Assembly: GCA_964633195.1 (NCBI GenBank)
Contig: CAZWFL010000011.1
Location: 8,932-72,931, forward strand
Direction of reading: 5' to 3'
DNA length: 64,000 nucleotides
Origin: an uncultured Rikenellaceae bacterium
GTDB taxonomy: Bacteria; Bacteroidota; Bacteroidia; Bacteroidales; VadinHA17
In this document: positions 9,531 to 12,808 of the stretch, one piece after another
Position numbering within the stretch: position 1 is the first letter of the stretch
How the letters are laid out: each line of letters opens with the position of its first letter
The notes under the pieces: generated by a model
The model's database searches: none
What the model saw: only the letters and a program-made list of their open reading frames with translations
Told to the model about the DNA's origin: nothing
Translations under genes and position numbers: made by a program

Positions 9531-10010
9531 TTACTCATTTTTCCTCTTTATGTCATCTGAGAACATCCTGGCTTCCTTCATTGTCATATTGCCCTTCAGC
9601 TGGATCACAAAATTATCCTTGCCGCCTGCCAGTAATAATAATTCACGGATAATATTGCCATCGGTCTTCATCAGCATCTGGATATCCTGGTCAGACTCCT
9701 TTACTCTTAACAACTCTTCGTAATTCCTGACATTGATATCTTTTATCACGGAACTATAGAAATTTTCCCCACCTGATCCTTTCTTGTCTTCGACCAGCAA
9801 TCTGATTTCCTGTATATCAGCAGGAAATCGGCACCCTTCAATTTCACAATCATCCAGTTTAGCCAATTTAATTAAATCGCCGCTTAATGTCAGGGTAACA
9901 AAACCTTCCCTGCCTGAATACTTTTCAAAAAGAGCATCAACCGATTTTTGACCGGACAAAGTCGTCATCAGGCTTAACAGGCAGACAACACAACCAACCA
10001 ATCTTTTCAT
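9531..10010 (-). CDS. DUF4252 family exported protein
   Basis: Paralog of 7845-8360 (LFEKYSGREGF, YEELLRVKE). Confidence 0.78.
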   Translation of the reverse strand: MKRLVGCVVCLLSLMTTLSGQKSVDALFEKYSGREGFVTLTLSGDLIKLAKLDDCEIEGCRFPADIQEIRLLVEDKKGSGGENFYSSVIKDINVRNYEELLRVKESDQDIQMLMKTDGNIIRELLLLAGGKDNFVIQLKGNMTMKEARMFSDDIKRKNE

Positions 10011-10144
10011 GACTTAAATTTTTAAAATAATGATACACTTAATCACTCTATTATTTTCATTCAATTGCATGACGATTTACCAGCAGGTTCATTACACGAA
10101 TTCCGAAAAAAAACAGAAGAATTTGCTTTAAAACATTTTTATAG

Positions 10145-10152
10145 TAAATTTG
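10145..10152 (+). promoter_or_regulatory. Bacteroidota -7 promoter box for the tRNA locus
   Basis: TAAATTTG matches TAnnTTTG, about 20 nt upstream of the first tRNA-like copy. Confidence 0.65.
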
Positions 10153-10172
10153 CACTCGCAAAAAAAGGGGCT

Positions 10173-10227
10173 GATTCAGTAGCTCAGCAGGTAGAGCATT
10201 CCGCTTAGCGGAAGGGTCCTGTGGTTC
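10173..10227 (+). pseudogene. tRNA-Lys-derived copy A: 5' half with the anticodon arm replaced by hairpin TTCCGC-TTA-GCGGAA, truncated in the T arm
   Basis: GATTCAGTAGCTCAGCAGGTAGAGCA-[TTCCGCTTAGCGGAA]-GGGTCCTGTGGTTC compared with the intact tRNA at 10245. Confidence 0.85.
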
Positions 10228-10244
10228 TTTAAAATATGAAATTT

Positions 10245-10317
10245 GATTCAGTAGCTCAGTTGGTAGAGCACATCCCTTTTAAGGATGGGGTCCTGGGTTC
10301 GAGCCCCAGCTGGATCA
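10245..10317 (+). tRNA. tRNA-Lys (anticodon UUU)
   Basis: Full cloverleaf: acceptor GATTCAG/CTGGATC, D arm, anticodon arm CATCC-CTTTTAA-GGATG, T arm CTGGG-TTCGAGC-CCCAG; CCA not encoded. Confidence 0.97.
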
Positions 10318-10322
10318 CAATA

Positions 10323-10350
10323 AAGAGGATAATTGAAAGATCCTCCTTTT
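10323..10350 (+). terminator. Probable intrinsic terminator after tRNA-Lys
   Basis: GAGGAT-N9-ATCCTC hairpin followed by CTTTT. Confidence 0.5.
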
Positions 10351-10367
10351 CGTCTCGCTTACTTGCC

Positions 10368-10664
10368 ATGTATACGCTCTAAATTCTTTATAGTCATAAG
10401 CTGGACAGATATTACGTCGGGTATACAAATGACCTCAACAGACGTCTATCCGAACATAACAGAATCAAGGGTAAGTATACCGACATTGGCTTTCCATGGA
10501 CTGTTGTACACACGGAAGAATTTAAATCCGGGAAGGAAGCGAGAGACCGGGAAAGATTCATTAAAAAGAAAAAATCAAAACAACTTATTTTAGATCTAAT
10601 CAACAGTTGGCAGAGCATTCCGCTTTGCGGAAGGGTCCTGGGTTCGCCTGTCCCGATAGCCTGA
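10368..10664 (+). pseudogene. Small GIY-YIG nuclease with an in-frame TAA at codon 5
   Basis: Manual translation: MYTL*ILYSHKLDRYYVGYTNDLNRRLSEHNRIKGKYTDIGFPWTVVHTEEFKSGKEARDRERFIKKKKSKQLILDLINSWQ... It has the YxxYIL/YVG-T, R..EHN and catalytic E motifs of standalone GIY-YIG proteins. Missed by the ORF track. Confidence 0.88.
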
Positions 10665-10703
10665 ATGAAATGAAGGCGTGTCGGGAGGCCCCGGCTGGAT
10701 CAC
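10604..10703 (+). pseudogene. tRNA-Lys-derived copy C: D-loop to 3' end, anticodon arm replaced by TTCCGC-TTT-GCGGAA, with an ~40-nt hairpin inserted in the T loop
   Basis: CAGTTGGCAGAGCA-[TTCCGCTTTGCGGAA]-GGGTCCTGGGTTCG-[CCTGTCCCGA...TCGGG]-AGGCCCCGGCTGGATCAC. Confidence 0.85.
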
Positions 10704-11131
10704 GAAAGAAAAGAGTTATAAATTATTTGACCATCTCCCGGAAAAATGGAAAAAAATTCTGGATATTAATAACAGAAAAGGATTTAAAGGTTTTCCCGAT
10801 GAGGAAAGCTGGTTTAAAAATGATATTTTTAAGGTATAAACGAATAATAACAACACAATAAAACCAGCTTATGTTAAAAGTATTAACAAAACATGTCAGA
10901 AGCAATGGCCAATATGAACTGATTTTTGAATCAGCACACGGGAAGCCGGAATTCAGTGAATGGGAATTGGAACTGTAGGGCTGAACTATGGGCAATCATT
11001 TAGAGTACCCGGGAGAAGGAAAATTCAGGATACCAGGATCTCAGCAAATCCTGGATTAATTTTCTGCAATATTTCGGGTAATAACGCGCAATAAATGTTT
11101 TAAACATATTGATAATAAAGAAATAAATAAA

Positions 11132-12808
11132 ATGAAGTTAAAAAGATTTTTCAGCGGAGTTTTTATCGTTTTTGTACTACTCGTTGCATGTTCCTGTGCT
11201 AAAACAAATCCATTCATACAATTACACGTAAAAAGCTACCATGTTCCGGTTTTAAAAAACCTGAAAGGAAACCCGGTGTTACAAATGGAGTTGCAATTAA
11301 ACGATTCTTTGGCAACTCTCCATTCAACTTCCATAACAGTAAATCTGGAAGGAACAAGTGAAATGGATGATATAAAACTTGTTCGGGTTTGGTATTCCGG
11401 AAGTGATTCGCTCTTTCGGAATGTTTCGGCAATGAACTTGTTTGGCGGAGAAAAGGCACCTGCAACTAAAATTGAATTCACTGGTGAGCAACTGCTTAGC
11501 CCGGGCGAAAATTATTTTTGGGTTTCGGTTGAGTTAAACGAAGATGCAAACCTGCACAACAAAATTGGAGTGGCGCTGTCAAAATTAAAATTCAGCGACA
11601 ATACTTACCTGAAACCAAATACCGAATCCGGCAGTTTAAAACAACGAATAGGAGTCGCCGTACGAAAACACATGGACGACAACGTGCAAACCTACCGGAT
11701 CCCTGGCATTGCCACAACTAATGATGGCTCATTGCTGGCCGTTTACGATGTCCGCCGCCAAAGCAGCCGCGACCTTCAGGGCGATATGGACATTGGTGTC
11801 AGCCGCAGCACCGATGGCGGAAAATCCTGGGAACCCATGCGTATTGGGCTGGATATGGATGAGTGGGGAGGCCTTCCTGAAAAATTCAACGGGGTAAGCG
11901 ATGCATGTATTTTAGTGGATGAAAATTCAGGTAAAATATTTTTAGCAGGGCTTTGGATGCACGGGGTAATTAATGATGAGGGTGTTTGGCAGGAAGGACT
12001 TACTGAAGAAAGCACCCTTTGGAACCATCAGTGGCGAACCAAAGGCTCGCAACCCGGTTTTGGGGTAAAACAAACTGCGCAGTTTTTGATAGCTACCTCC
12101 ACCGACGATGGAAAAACCTGGAGCGATCCGGCAAATATTACCGAAATGTGCAAAAAAGAAGAATGGTGGCTATTTGCTCCCGCTCCCGGCCAGGGAATTA
12201 CGTTGGAAGACGGGACACTTGTTTTTCCAACTCAGGGCCGTGATAAAAACGGGGAAACTTTTTCAAATATTACCTTAAGCTCAGATGGTGGGGAGAACTG
12301 GAAAACCAGTCCCCTTGCCTTTTTTAACACCACAGAAAATATGGTGGTTCAACTTTCTGGTGGTAGTATTATGCTGAATGCCCGCTTTAACGAAAACCGG
12401 AATAACAAGGGGGATGATAACGGACGTGTTGTGGTTACCACAAGTGATTTGGGGAATACATGGGAAGAACATCCCACTTCCCGCTCGGCGCTAATCGAAT
12501 CAACCTGCATGGCATCCATTCATAAACATGTTTATAATGAAAACGGGGAAGAAAAAAGCATTCTACTGTTTTCGAATCCCAACACCAAAACCGGCCGCTT
12601 TAATATGACCATCAAAGTAAGTTTCGACGATGGCAAAACCTGGCCTGAAGAAAACTGGTTGCTACTGGATGAAGGTAGAAGTTATGGCTATTCCTGTCTT
12701 ACATCGGTAGATGAAAACACCATCGGTATTTTATACGAAGGCAGCCGGGCACACATGACTTTTGAAAGTATTCCGTTAAAGGAATTGGCAAATAATGACT
12801 TGAAATAG
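11132..12808 (+). CDS. nanH: Exo-alpha-sialidase (GH33), lipoprotein
   Basis: Lipobox VACSC, YRIP motif, Asp-boxes (STDGGKSW, STDDGKTW, SSDGGENW, SFDDGKTW), YGYSC. Confidence 0.92.
   Translation: MKLKRFFSGVFIVFVLLVACSCAKTNPFIQLHVKSYHVPVLKNLKGNPVLQMELQLNDSLATLHSTSITVNLEGTSEMDDIKLVRVWYSGSDSLFRNVSAMNLFGGEKAPATKIEFTGEQLLSPGENYFWVSVELNEDANLHNKIGVALSKLKFSDNTYLKPNTESGSLKQRIGVAVRKHMDDNVQTYRIPGIATTNDGSLLAVYDVRRQSSRDLQGDMDIGVSRSTDGGKSWEPMRIGLDMDEWGGLPEKFNGVSDACILVDENSGKIFLAGLWMHGVINDEGVWQEGLTEESTLWNHQWRTKGSQPGFGVKQTAQFLIATSTDDGKTWSDPANITEMCKKEEWWLFAPAPGQGITLEDGTLVFPTQGRDKNGETFSNITLSSDGGENWKTSPLAFFNTTENMVVQLSGGSIMLNARFNENRNNKGDDNGRVVVTTSDLGNTWEEHPTSRSALIESTCMASIHKHVYNENGEEKSILLFSNPNTKTGRFNMTIKVSFDDGKTWPEENWLLLDEGRSYGYSCLTSVDENTIGILYEGSRAHMTFESIPLKELANNDLK

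What the first reader, a model, noticed from the sequence alone, without database searches (positions are those of the whole stretch)
10173..10703. tRNA-Lys / GIY-YIG array in which the tRNA copies have the anticodon arm precisely swapped for a palindrome
Seen: the order is promoter, copy A, intact tRNA-Lys(UUU), terminator, GIY-YIG gene, copy C. In both copies the 17-nt anticodon arm CATCCCTTTTAAGGATG is replaced, at identical boundaries (after GAGCA, before GGGTCCTG), by the 15-nt hairpin TTCCGC-TT(A/T)-GCGGAA. Copy A has the 5' half; copy C has the D-loop to 3' end. No integrase or transposase is nearby. Known: ordinary att duplications copy a tRNA end unchanged, and small standalone GIY-YIG proteins are related to structure-specific/homing nucleases. 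Inference: this is a minimal selfish system in which a ~80-aa nuclease targets the tRNA gene or hairpin and spreads by local duplication. The hairpin would be the cleavage/mobility signal or an immunity mark, and the tRNA-like RNAs could be guides or decoys. I know of no named system with this layout, but cannot exclude prior description.
Basis: partly seen in the sequence, partly recalled or inferred. Interest (0 to 1): 0.88.

Follow-up and report, generated by a model that had tools for sequence, protein, structure and literature searches.

The report
Ssn-like nuclease cassette at tRNA genes
A broken gene for a tiny DNA-cutting enzyme sits just after a lysine tRNA gene, bracketed by partial tRNA copies whose anticodon arm is swapped for the kind of hairpin such enzymes recognise; the same layout recurs at many tRNA genes across this bacterial phylum.

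Summary
It is also not unique. All 3 small GIY-YIG genes of this genome adjoin tRNA genes with hairpin-bearing partial tRNA copies. So do 22 of 28 loci from relatives and 25 of 30 loci from the phylum, always on the tRNA's strand. The profile finds the gene in 204 of 301 genomes of the phylum.

The hairpin belongs to a palindrome family, T(T/C)CCG...CGG(A/G)A. It lies near 28 of 70 gene copies, against 1 of 223 control windows. At the lysine locus 14 of 15 hairpin columns are invariant in four species, against 17 of 77 third codon positions.

A named relative exists: the Ssn family of small GIY-YIG nucleases that cut single-stranded DNA beside hairpin repeats, laid out repeat-gene-repeat (PMC11893778). 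The hairpin core resembles its Neisseria repeat. The proteins match a repeat-flanked Sphingopyxis protein at E 1e-10 to 1e-12.

Placing the hairpin inside tRNA-derived copies at tRNA genes appears undescribed. The window's own gene is dead: TAA replaces the catalytic Tyr5. Verdict: a new variant of a known kind.

The parts
10122..10152 (+). Promoter-like pair, TTTG (10122-10125) and TAAATTTG (10145-10152), 19 nt apart, upstream of copy A
   Evidence: Sequence. The same ...TTTGCACTCGCAAAA... leader precedes tRNA-Lys in relatives. That this is the Bacteroidota promoter type is recalled knowledge, not a tool result.
10173..10227 (+). Copy A: tRNA-Lys positions 1-26, the palindrome in place of the anticodon arm, then positions 44 to about 57, ending in the T loop after GGTTC
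   Evidence: 24 of 26 identical, E 2.8e-6 within the locus. Also present at the orthologous locus of relatives both with and without the GIY-YIG gene.
10199..10213 (+). Palindrome TTCCGC-TTA-GCGGAA, which replaces the 17-nt anticodon arm of copy A
   Evidence: Folds as ssDNA at -7.5 kcal/mol, z -4.9, against -5.1 for the native arm.
10228..10244 (+). AT-rich spacer (TTTAAAATATGAAATTT) between copy A and the tRNA
   Evidence: Similar spacers follow copy A in relatives. A similar one sits in this genome's tRNA-Gly(CCC) leader.
10245..10318 (+). Intact tRNA-Lys(UUU) gene
   Evidence: ARAGORN. Rfam RF00005, 69.8 bits. 71 of 74 columns invariant in four species.
10325..10350 (+). Terminator-like stem GAGGAT/ATCCTC with a 9-nt loop and a T run
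   Evidence: Read by eye; not called by the scan. An equivalent hairpin plus T run lies at the same place in relatives.
10368..10664 (+). Small GIY-YIG (Ssn-like) pseudogene. TAA at 10380-10382 replaces the invariant catalytic Tyr5, and the normal stop is lost so the frame reads through copy C.
   Evidence: In run X8, 10382 is T (giving TAT, Tyr) but 10370 is T (ATG becomes ATT).
10605..10703 (+). Copy C: tRNA-Lys from the D loop to the 3' end, with the palindrome in place of the anticodon arm and an insertion in the T loop
   Evidence: The 35-nt block AGAGCA-hairpin-GGGTCCTGGGTTCG is invariant at 33 of 35 columns in four species.
10618..10632 (+). Palindrome TTCCGC-TTT-GCGGAA in copy C
   Evidence: 14 of 15 columns invariant in four species, against 17 of 77 third codon positions. 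-7.5 kcal/mol as ssDNA.
10647..10688 (+). 42-nt hairpin insertion in the T loop of copy C, containing a TCCCGA...TCGGGA stem
   Evidence: -11.6 kcal/mol, z -2.6. An orthologous insertion is in G010 but not in G023 or G018.

Best explanation
The window holds a decayed copy of a tRNA-associated cassette. The cassette is built around a small single-domain GIY-YIG nuclease of the Ssn type. Ssn enzymes are site-specific single-strand DNA nucleases that bind a hairpin repeat and cut just upstream of it.

In this phylum (Bacteroidota by inference) the gene sits a few tens of bases downstream of a tRNA gene, on the same strand. It abuts a partial copy of that same tRNA, running from about position 8-14 to position 76. 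In that copy the anticodon arm is replaced by the nuclease-type palindrome T(T/C)CCG...CGG(A/G)A. The tRNA's own GAGCA and GGGTC become the hairpin's flanks.

What is shown:
- the recurrence of the layout and its precise boundaries;
- strong constraint on the hairpin;
- enrichment of the palindrome beside the gene;
- conserved catalytic residues in relatives.

What is inferred:
- The protein nicks the hairpin-bearing strand when the DNA is single-stranded, for example during replication or at the heavily transcribed tRNA locus.
- The breaks, together with the tRNA-derived direct repeats, drive recombination. This recombination creates the upstream copy A, tandem arrays, and deletions that leave copy A without the gene.
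- The tRNA-like flanks keep each cassette lineage tied to one tRNA isotype.

In the window the gene is dead and copy C is eroding.
For: 1. Own genome. The 3 GIY-YIG matches at E 1e-4 or better (of 6 listed at E <= 1) all lie next to tRNA genes. They carry partial tRNA copies with GC-rich hairpins, at Lys-UUU, Arg-CCT and Pro-GGG.

2. Relatives. 22 of 28 loci have a same-strand tRNA within 550 nt, mostly 11-56 nt upstream of the gene. In the phylum sample it is 25 of 30 loci. The profile finds the gene in 204 of 301 genomes.

3. A tRNA-derived copy right after the gene scores 45 or more in 16 of 19 loci examined among relatives. In the phylum sample it is 17 of 25 loci that hold a tRNA.

4. Breakpoints of 95 distinct tRNA fragments in 39 loci cluster at the arm boundaries. 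Homology ends at positions 26-28 in 11 fragments and restarts at 43-46 in 16. Positions 53-57 hold 10 ends and 11 starts. Of 43 distinct palindromes near the genes, 13 follow GAGCA and 4 follow GAGCG, while 10 precede GGGTC and 9 precede AGGTC.

5. T[TC]CCG palindromes lie downstream of 23, upstream of 16 and on both sides of 11 of 70 gene copies. Control windows give 1 of 223.

6. At the lysine locus in four species, invariant columns are: hairpin 14 of 15, third codon positions 17 of 77, spacer 18 of 107. One stem pair co-varies: TTCCGC/GCGGAA against TCCCGC/GCGGGA in copy A of G018 and G005.

7. Y5, Y16, G18, R26, H30 and E62 are invariant in 19 intact proteins.

8. PMC11893778 (abstract, passages, sections 7, 10, 12, 17, 18) describes Ssn as small single-domain GIY-YIG ssDNA nucleases flanked by hairpin repeats. 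The Neisseria repeat has the core TTCCCGC...GCGGGAA.

9. A 97-aa Sphingopyxis protein flanked on both sides by the published motif matches the proteins here. BLASTP gives E 1e-12 (32% over 75 aa) and E 1e-10 (36% over 78 aa). Profile comparison gives probability 98.4%.

10. Empty, filled and relic states of the lysine locus can all be derived from one another by recombination between the repeats.
Against: - The published degenerate Ssn motif is not enriched in this genome: 16 hits against 8-20 in five shuffles. The hairpins here lack its GTC[AT][CT] upstream box.
- I could test neither the CDD family cd10448 nor the Neisseria meningitidis protein. The closest solved sequences are labelled UPF0213 (1zg2, E 4.7e-17), so family placement among the small GIY-YIG clades stays open.
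- 47 of 70 gene copies have no strict T[TC]CCG palindrome downstream, though other GC hairpins occur there.
- The palindrome is abundant in some genomes where the profile found no gene: G134 has 237 and G350 has 115.
- The dispersed copies in this genome have heterogeneous flanks.
- No biochemical or expression evidence was obtained.
- The window's own gene is broken, so nothing can act from it now.
Confidence: 0.6

Rival explanations
1. Free-standing homing endonuclease, like phage T4/T6 SegB. The nuclease cuts the double-stranded tRNA gene of genomes that lack the cassette. Repair copies the cassette in. The hairpin-swapped copies are cleavage-immune remnants.
For: - SegB is a GIY-YIG enzyme associated with tRNA genes, and it drives tandem amplification of tRNA-segB segments (PMC13096335: abstract and passages).
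- Tandem arrays occur here too.
- Empty and filled lysine loci coexist in one genus.
- Protein lineages keep to one isotype more than chance would give: 24 label changes against 36-40 in the ten shuffles printed, and over all 14 groups no shuffle of 200 was as low.
Against: - The proteins are 64-117 aa, mostly 81-90, with no DNA-binding domain.
- The functional tRNA beside the cassette is near-identical to the tRNA of empty loci, so it would remain a target.
- The palindrome has its own conserved sequence family, shared across isotypes. It is not simply any disruption of the arm.
- No phage or plasmid copies at E 1e-6.
Confidence: 0.12
2. Two unrelated things overlap. The GIY-YIG gene is tied to tRNA genes for its own reasons. 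The palindromes are an independent REP-like repeat family that merely settles in dead tRNA copies.
For: - The palindromes are dispersed genome-wide: TTCCGC 46, TCCCGA 43, TCCCGC 28 and TCCGCC 21 sites, against 0-2 in a shuffle.
- They are common in some genomes with no gene found.
- Other palindrome types also sit in loops of the partial tRNA copies.
- The genome has two Y1-transposase homologues.
Against: - Enrichment beside the gene: 28 of 70 copies have a palindrome on at least one side, against 1 of 223 control windows.
- The hairpin is conserved far beyond the neutral level.
- The boundaries are arm-precise.
- Genomes with the gene hold more palindromes: median 13 against 3 in one family (p 0.004), and 9 against 0 across order-level families (p 0.006), both without correction for kinship.
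- The two Y1-transposase genes are flanked by other hairpins, not this type.
Confidence: 0.15
3. The partial tRNA copies act as RNAs. They could be tRNA-like processing or stability signals for the nuclease mRNA, or guides or decoys.
For: - The copies lie in the tRNA transcription unit, on the tRNA's strand.
- In one relative the upstream copies are full-length and cloverleaf-like.
- A 103-nt contig of an RNA library joins two such copies in tandem. It has low depth, and DNA carry-over is not excluded.
Against: - Copy C lacks the 5' acceptor strand and copy A lacks the 3' half.
- Upstream copies are decayed in 4 of 16 lysine loci.
- T-loop and D-loop insertions would break the tRNA fold.
- Rfam finds nothing but the tRNA.
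- Published Ssn enzymes do not bind or cut RNA (PMC11893778, section 12).
Confidence: 0.06
4. Assembly artefact or chimera of repeated tRNA sequence.
For: The genome is a 123-contig assembly. Short contigs break at the repeated tRNA words, and no single contig spans the whole stretch.
Against: - Contigs of two studies bridge copy A to the tRNA, and the tRNA to the gene and copy C.
- The same layout is present in other species' genomes.
Confidence: 0.01

Closest known systems
Ssn nucleases with NTS/SRM hairpin repeats (Chenal et al., Nat Commun 2025, PMC11893778)
   Same: - A small single-domain GIY-YIG protein with a hairpin-forming inverted repeat on both sides of the gene, and the repeat dispersed in the genome.
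- The palindrome core here, T(T/C)CCGC...GCGG(A/G)A, resembles the Neisseria core TTCCCGC...GCGGGAA.
- The proteins match a repeat-flanked Sphingopyxis member at E 1e-10 to 1e-12.
   Different: - Here the hairpin is grafted into partial tRNA gene copies in place of the anticodon arm.
- The gene sits directly after a tRNA gene.
- The published upstream box GTC[AT][CT] is replaced by the tRNA's GAGCA, and the published degenerate motif is not enriched.
- The paper's main text has 0 occurrences of 'tRNA' and of 'Bacteroid'. I could not see its supplements.
- 0 of 7 non-Bacteroidota GIY-YIG loci held a tRNA.
SegB, the free-standing GIY-YIG homing endonuclease in the tRNA gene cluster of T4-like phages (PMC13096335)
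   Same: A GIY-YIG gene next to tRNA genes, with tandem amplification of tRNA-nuclease segments through homologous recombination (passages).
   Different: - SegB is a phage enzyme described as a homing endonuclease that makes double-strand breaks.
- The proteins here are 64-117 aa, mostly 81-90, chromosomal, without a second domain, and come with a specific hairpin.
REP elements with RAYT (Y1) transposases, and IS200/IS605
   Same: Dispersed extragenic palindromes paired with a small nuclease gene that they flank, with recognition of single-strand hairpins. The Ssn paper itself draws this analogy (section 12).
   Different: The enzyme fold differs: GIY-YIG, not HUH/Y1. The two Y1 genes of this genome are flanked by other hairpins.
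Genomic islands integrated in tRNA genes (att duplications)
   Same: A direct repeat of part of a tRNA gene bounds the inserted DNA.
   Different: No integrase is present. The insert is about 350 bp. The repeat is altered at the anticodon arm, and 5'-part copies also occur.
UPF0213 small GIY-YIG proteins (PDB 1zg2, 1ywl) and SLX1
   Same: These are the closest solved sequences: E 4.7e-17 and 2.2e-14, then SLX1 at 1.5e-6.
   Different: Their function is uncharacterised in those entries. No link to hairpins or tRNA genes is known to me (recalled).

Membership tests
Ssn (cd10448) site-specific ssDNA nucleases | Single-domain GIY-YIG protein of at most about 150 aa | tested here: met
   Pfam PF01541 only. 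The ORFs of relatives run from 64 to 117 aa, mostly 81-90.
Ssn (cd10448) site-specific ssDNA nucleases | Intact GIY-YIG catalytic residues | tested here: met
   Y5, Y16, G18, R26, H30 and E62 are invariant in 19 relatives. The window's own copy fails: TAA at Tyr5.
Ssn (cd10448) site-specific ssDNA nucleases | Top CDD hit cd10448, or blastp E < 1e-10 with 75% cover to N. meningitidis SsnA | tested here: inconclusive
   Neither CDD nor the N. meningitidis sequence was available. As a proxy, a Sphingopyxis protein flanked by the published motif matches at E 1e-12 and 1e-10 over 75-78 of 81-86 aa. Profile comparison gives 98.4% to it, against 96.0% to a small repeat-less GIY-YIG protein of N. lactamica that I take to be UPF0213-like (recalled likeness). 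PDB hits are labelled UPF0213.
Ssn (cd10448) site-specific ssDNA nucleases | Gene flanked by hairpin-forming inverted repeats within about 500 bp | tested here: met
   In the window, the palindromes at 10199-10213 and 10618-10632. Of 70 gene copies, 28 have one on at least one side and 11 on both; control windows give 1 of 223.
Ssn (cd10448) site-specific ssDNA nucleases | Repeat matches the published degenerate SRM motif | tested here: not met
   16 hits in the genome against 8-20 in shuffles, and none at the GIY-YIG loci. The hairpins lack the GTC[AT][CT] box.
Ssn (cd10448) site-specific ssDNA nucleases | Cuts single-stranded DNA next to its hairpin, and not dsDNA or RNA | not testable with these tools
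   Needs purified protein.
Free-standing GIY-YIG homing endonucleases (Seg/I-TevI type) | Two-domain protein with a C-terminal DNA-binding domain | tested here: not met
   The 64-117 aa proteins (mostly 81-90) end a few codons after the catalytic domain, inside the tRNA copy.
Free-standing GIY-YIG homing endonucleases (Seg/I-TevI type) | The carrier's target gene bears a resistance polymorphism | tested here: not met
   The functional tRNA-Lys is near-identical in filled and empty loci.
tRNA-targeting integrative islands | Integrase gene beside the tRNA, and an unchanged 3' tRNA repeat | tested here: not met
   No integrase among 9 flanking ORFs. The repeat is altered at the anticodon arm.
REP/RAYT | Y1 transposase flanked by the same palindrome | tested here: not met
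   The two PF01797 genes are flanked by other hairpins.

The most novel reading that the evidence does not exclude
tRNA-scaffolded Ssn cassettes are autonomous minimal mobile units. The nuclease's recognition hairpin has been grafted in place of the anticodon arm of a tRNA copy. Nicking of the single strand there releases or primes a segment whose ends are tRNA sequence. The near-universal conservation of each tRNA then serves as homology arms. These let the cassette copy itself into the same tRNA gene of other genomes, for example through taken-up single-stranded DNA, and amplify locally. That would be a new way for a mobile gene of about 250 bp to target essential genes without harming them.
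Probability: 0.25. Interest if true: 0.85.

Novelty: new variant of a known kind. Interest (0 to 1): 0.6.

Why it matters
If the reading holds, it gives the recently discovered Ssn single-strand nucleases a second natural setting: tRNA genes of a whole phylum rather than dispersed repeats. It also gives a ready-made set of enzyme and hairpin pairs for testing.

It would explain three annotation oddities:
- partial tRNA copies with odd anticodon loops, which gene finders call as strange tRNAs;
- tandem arrays next to tRNA genes;
- the many small GIY-YIG genes of these genomes.

It also makes one question directly testable: whether a single-strand nuclease can drive duplication, loss and spread of DNA at highly transcribed essential genes.

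Tried and rejected
Suppressor tRNA idea. Copy A's loop reads TTA and the gene has an in-frame TAA. ARAGORN also calls a 'tRNA-Stop(tta)' at G000:C1:17507-17588. I rejected this. Copy A has a 3-nt loop and lacks the 3' half. The C1 call lies in a run of G/C palindromes. A related strain has TAT at that codon.

Rfam. Nothing but the tRNA at E <= 1 in 9900-11200; there was also a chance mascRNA hit on the tRNA itself.

Published SRM motif. Not enriched.

Flank consensus of the dispersed palindromes. The flanks are heterogeneous. The commonest pair, GGAGA and TTCGG, occurs at only 10 of 155 sites, and 20 of 155 could be oriented by a GCA-type flank.

The search for related loci with alignment A1. 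I used the genome search with A1 instead.

Search for the Neisseria enzyme. A scan with the published NTS motif returned 120 stretches. I scanned 80 of the 120 (L096-L175) with the A1 profile and found no hit. In N. lactamica the only small GIY-YIG protein has no SRM within 1.5 kb, and I take it to be UPF0213-like (recalled likeness). N. mucosa has no small one. N. meningitidis SsnA was therefore never compared.

Phages and plasmids. No match at E 1e-6.

RNA evidence. No RNA run held more than 0.07 of the words. The one RNA run I laid covers mainly the tRNA. There is no verdict on expression of the gene or the copies. Parts without cover in X7 and X18 mean nothing.

RAYT as the driver of the palindromes. 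Two Y1 genes exist, but other hairpins flank them.

NCBIfam. No family above cut-off.

Literature. I found no paper on small GIY-YIG genes at tRNA genes with altered tRNA copies. This rests, which cover the open-access library only. Supplements of PMC11893778, which list the genomes and motifs used, were not visible and may include this phylum. PMC1564403 was seen only as a search listing.
Full report
**What is there.** The stretch 10122-10703 reads as follows:
- a promoter-like pair, TTTG and TAAATTTG;
- copy A, made of tRNA-Lys positions 1-26 (24 of 26 identical), a 15-nt palindrome, then positions 44 to about 57;
- a 17-nt AT-rich spacer;
- the intact tRNA-Lys(UUU);
- a hairpin with a T run;
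- a GIY-YIG frame with TAA as codon 5;
- copy C, running from the D loop to the 3' end with the same palindrome.

In both copies the palindrome replaces the 17-nt anticodon arm exactly between GAGCA and GGGTCCTG. Copy C also has a 42-nt hairpin insertion in its T loop and a degenerate D arm. The reading frame has lost its usual stop and runs on into copy C. The nine neighbouring ORFs include no integrase or transposase.

**Not an artefact.** Eight public runs hold half or more of the sampled words. Contigs of run X1 tile the stretch without a difference. Contigs of run X8, from another study, bridge copy A, and the tRNA through the gene to copy C, with 3 and 6 differences. In X8 codon 5 is TAT (10382 A>T) but the start codon is ATT (10370 G>T). 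The gene is therefore decaying in different ways in different strains. That contig has a depth of only 4.

**It recurs.** In this genome the 3 GIY-YIG matches at E 1e-4 or better all adjoin tRNA genes.
- At tRNA-Arg(CCT) the promoter and a full-length tRNA copy with three hairpin insertions precede the intact tRNA. After the gene comes a 3' tRNA copy with the same T-loop hairpin.
- At tRNA-Pro(GGG) the gene lies between a 5' fragment with hairpins and the intact tRNA.

Among 41 related genomes, 28 have the gene. Of 28 fetched loci, 22 hold a standard tRNA on the gene's strand within 550 nt, mostly 11-56 nt upstream. One holds an odd tRNA-like call and five hold none. With a profile of 19 intact proteins (A1), 204 of 301 genomes of the phylum have matches, about 960 in all. 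Some form tandem arrays: at least 13 copies at a spacing of about 299 bp in G129, and five at 382 bp in G097. Of 30 fetched loci from that sample, 25 have a same-strand tRNA beside the gene. Two of the five without one lie at contig ends, and one lies inside an array. The tRNA isotypes include Lys, Val, Asn, Met, Pro, Arg, Asp, Ala, Ser, Thr, Phe, Gly and Leu.

**The altered tRNA copy is part of the unit.** A tRNA-derived copy directly after the gene scores 45 or more in 16 of 19 loci examined among relatives. In the phylum sample it does so in 17 of 25 loci that hold a tRNA; three more were the tRNA itself and five were weak. The gene's last codons usually run into the D-arm part of the copy.

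Across 95 distinct fragments in 39 loci the breakpoints are not random:
- homology ends at positions 26-28 in 11 fragments and at position 21 in 5;
- it restarts at positions 43-46 in 16 fragments;
- positions 53-57, in the T loop after GGTTC, hold 10 ends and 11 starts.

What fills the gap is usually a palindrome of one family, T(T/C)CCG...CGG(A/G)A. Examples are TCCCGA...TCGGGA at Val, Asn, Asp, Ala and Pro loci, and TTCCGC or TCCCGC at Lys. Of 43 distinct palindromes near the genes, 13 follow GAGCA and 4 follow GAGCG, while 10 precede GGGTC and 9 precede AGGTC. Such palindromes lie downstream of 23, upstream of 16 and on both sides of 11 of 70 gene copies. In control windows of the same loci the figure is 1 of 223.

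**The hairpin is constrained.** I aligned the lysine locus of four species whose proteins are 65-69% identical to the window's. Invariant columns were:
- tRNA, 71 of 74;
- spacer, 18 of 107;
- ORF, 124 of 233 (third codon positions 17 of 77);
- the tRNA-like block around the hairpin, 33 of 35;
- the hairpin itself, 14 of 15.

Gene conversion from the neighbouring tRNA could keep the tRNA-like flanks alike. It cannot keep the hairpin, which the tRNA lacks. In copy A of different species the second stem pair changes on both sides. As single-stranded DNA the hairpin folds at -7.5 kcal/mol, against -5.1 for the native arm.

**Empty and filled sites.** I used the upstream DUF4252 gene to find the locus in the genus, and 16 of 30 loci showed tRNA-Lys(UUU).
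- Nine are plain promoter-tRNA-terminator.
- Three have copy A, once as three tandem copies, but no nuclease gene.
- Four have decayed leader relics.
- Separately, the filled locus in G023 lacks copy A.

All these states follow from recombination among the three tRNA-derived direct repeats. The repeat unit of the arrays, 70-72 bp, equals copy A plus its spacer. Other tRNA leaders of this genome (Met, Gly-CCC) carry similar relics without a gene.

**What it is like.** A literature search surfaced PMC11893778. I read its abstract, passages and sections 7, 10, 12, 17 and 18. It describes the Ssn family: small single-domain GIY-YIG proteins (CDD cd10448) that bind a hairpin repeat as single-stranded DNA and cut upstream of it. 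The genes are typically flanked by the repeat, and the repeat is dispersed in the genome. The authors call the layout IS-like.

The Neisseria repeat has the core TTCCCGC...GCGGGAA, close to the palindromes found here. In a Sphingopyxis genome reached through that motif, a 97-aa GIY-YIG gene is flanked on both sides by the published motif. It matches the proteins here at E 1e-12 and 1e-10. The profile comparison gives 98.4%, against 96.0% for a small, repeat-less GIY-YIG protein of N. lactamica that I take to be UPF0213-like.

In this genome the palindrome family is strongly over-represented: TTCCGC 46, TCCCGA 43, TCCCGC 28 and TCCGCC 21 sites, against 0-2 in a shuffle. TCCCGA...TCGGGA is enriched phylum-wide over a backwards control. 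Genomes with the gene hold more of it: median 13 against 3 in one family, and 9 against 0 across order-level families (not corrected for kinship).

**What does not fit.**
- The published degenerate motif is not enriched here, because the upstream box differs.
- Membership in cd10448 could not be tested, and the nearest solved sequences are labelled UPF0213.
- 47 of 70 copies lack a strict palindrome downstream.
- Two genomes with 237 and 115 palindromes have no gene by the profile.
- The dispersed copies have mixed flanks.
- I have no expression or biochemical evidence.

**Mechanism.** The shown parts are the recurrence of the layout, its boundaries, the constraint on the hairpin, and the conserved catalytic residues. 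The rest is inferred:
- The protein recognises the grafted hairpin on one strand when the DNA is single-stranded, and nicks upstream of it, within the D-arm part.
- Breaks at a locus full of direct tRNA repeats yield duplications, arrays and deletions.
- The tRNA-like flanks tie each lineage to one isotype. The protein tree needs 24 isotype changes against 36-40 in the ten shuffles printed, and over all 14 groups no shuffle of 200 was as low. The tree is poorly resolved and contains near-copies.

The homing-endonuclease rival, on the SegB model (PMC13096335, passages), is weakened in two ways. The proteins lack a DNA-binding domain. The functional tRNA is unchanged in carriers. The RNA-function rival has no support.

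**Novelty.** The pairing of enzyme and hairpin is known. Three things are not in the Ssn paper's main text, which has 0 occurrences of 'tRNA' and of 'Bacteroid', nor in my searches of the open library:
- the graft of the hairpin into tRNA copies;
- the fixed place of the gene after tRNA genes;
- the spread of this layout through a phylum.

The paper's supplements were not visible. None of 7 GIY-YIG loci from Neisseria and Sphingopyxis held a tRNA. I rate this a new variant of a known kind. The window's own copy is a dead example of it.

The tools gave no names.

Noticed in passing
G000:C46:10000-10900 (locus L002), outside the window: At tRNA-Arg(CCT) the promoter and leader are duplicated. 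A full-length tRNA copy carries two long palindromes (cctgcc...ggcaggg type) in place of the D stem, and one in the T loop. The same T-loop palindrome, with one mismatch, sits in the 3' copy after the GIY-YIG gene.
   Followed up: partly
G000 genome-wide, e.g. C2:157459, C3:105, C18:39381 (outside the window): The T(T/C)CCG palindromes often lie in clusters with other GC-rich palindromes and with runs of 7-8-nt repeats (cttccgt / cttcggt). The flanks are heterogeneous, and what spreads them is unknown.
   Followed up: partly
G000:C1:17507-17588 (outside the window): ARAGORN calls a 'tRNA-Stop(tta)' inside a run of poly-G/poly-C palindromes. It is probably a false call. Pieces of the same repeat occur on at least seven other contigs.
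   Followed up: partly
window 10370 and 10382: A related strain in run X8 has T at both places: the start ATG becomes ATT, and codon 5 TAA becomes TAT. The gene carries different defects in different strains. The contig depth is only 4.
   Followed up: no
L012 (G025:C3:7166-10405): An array of full-length tRNA-Val-like genes whose anticodon arm is TTCCGT-CTTAAA-ACGGAA. ARAGORN calls them tRNA-??? with a 2-nt anticodon, or 'tRNA-Phe(aaa)'. They are interleaved with two intact tRNA-Val genes and two identical GIY-YIG genes.
   Followed up: partly
L018 (G003:C7), L084 (G129:C2), L070 (G097:C19): Tandem arrays of the gene together with its altered tRNA copy: six copies at 343 bp, at least 13 at about 299 bp, and five at 382 bp.
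   Followed up: partly
G000:C49:25150-25478, C50:1560-1900 and C83:4080-4330 (outside the window): The leaders of tRNA-Met and tRNA-Gly(CCC), and a stray tRNA-Met fragment, hold partial tRNA copies with the same kinds of palindrome but no GIY-YIG gene. They are probably relics.
   Followed up: partly
L096-L215 (named records): The exact 28-nt Neisseria NTS motif occurs in records labelled as many phyla, including Dehalococcoidia, Planctomycetes, Nitrospirae and Gemmatimonadetes.
   Followed up: no
window 10704-11131: About 430 nt without a long ORF lie between copy C and the sialidase gene. I did not examine it.
   Followed up: no
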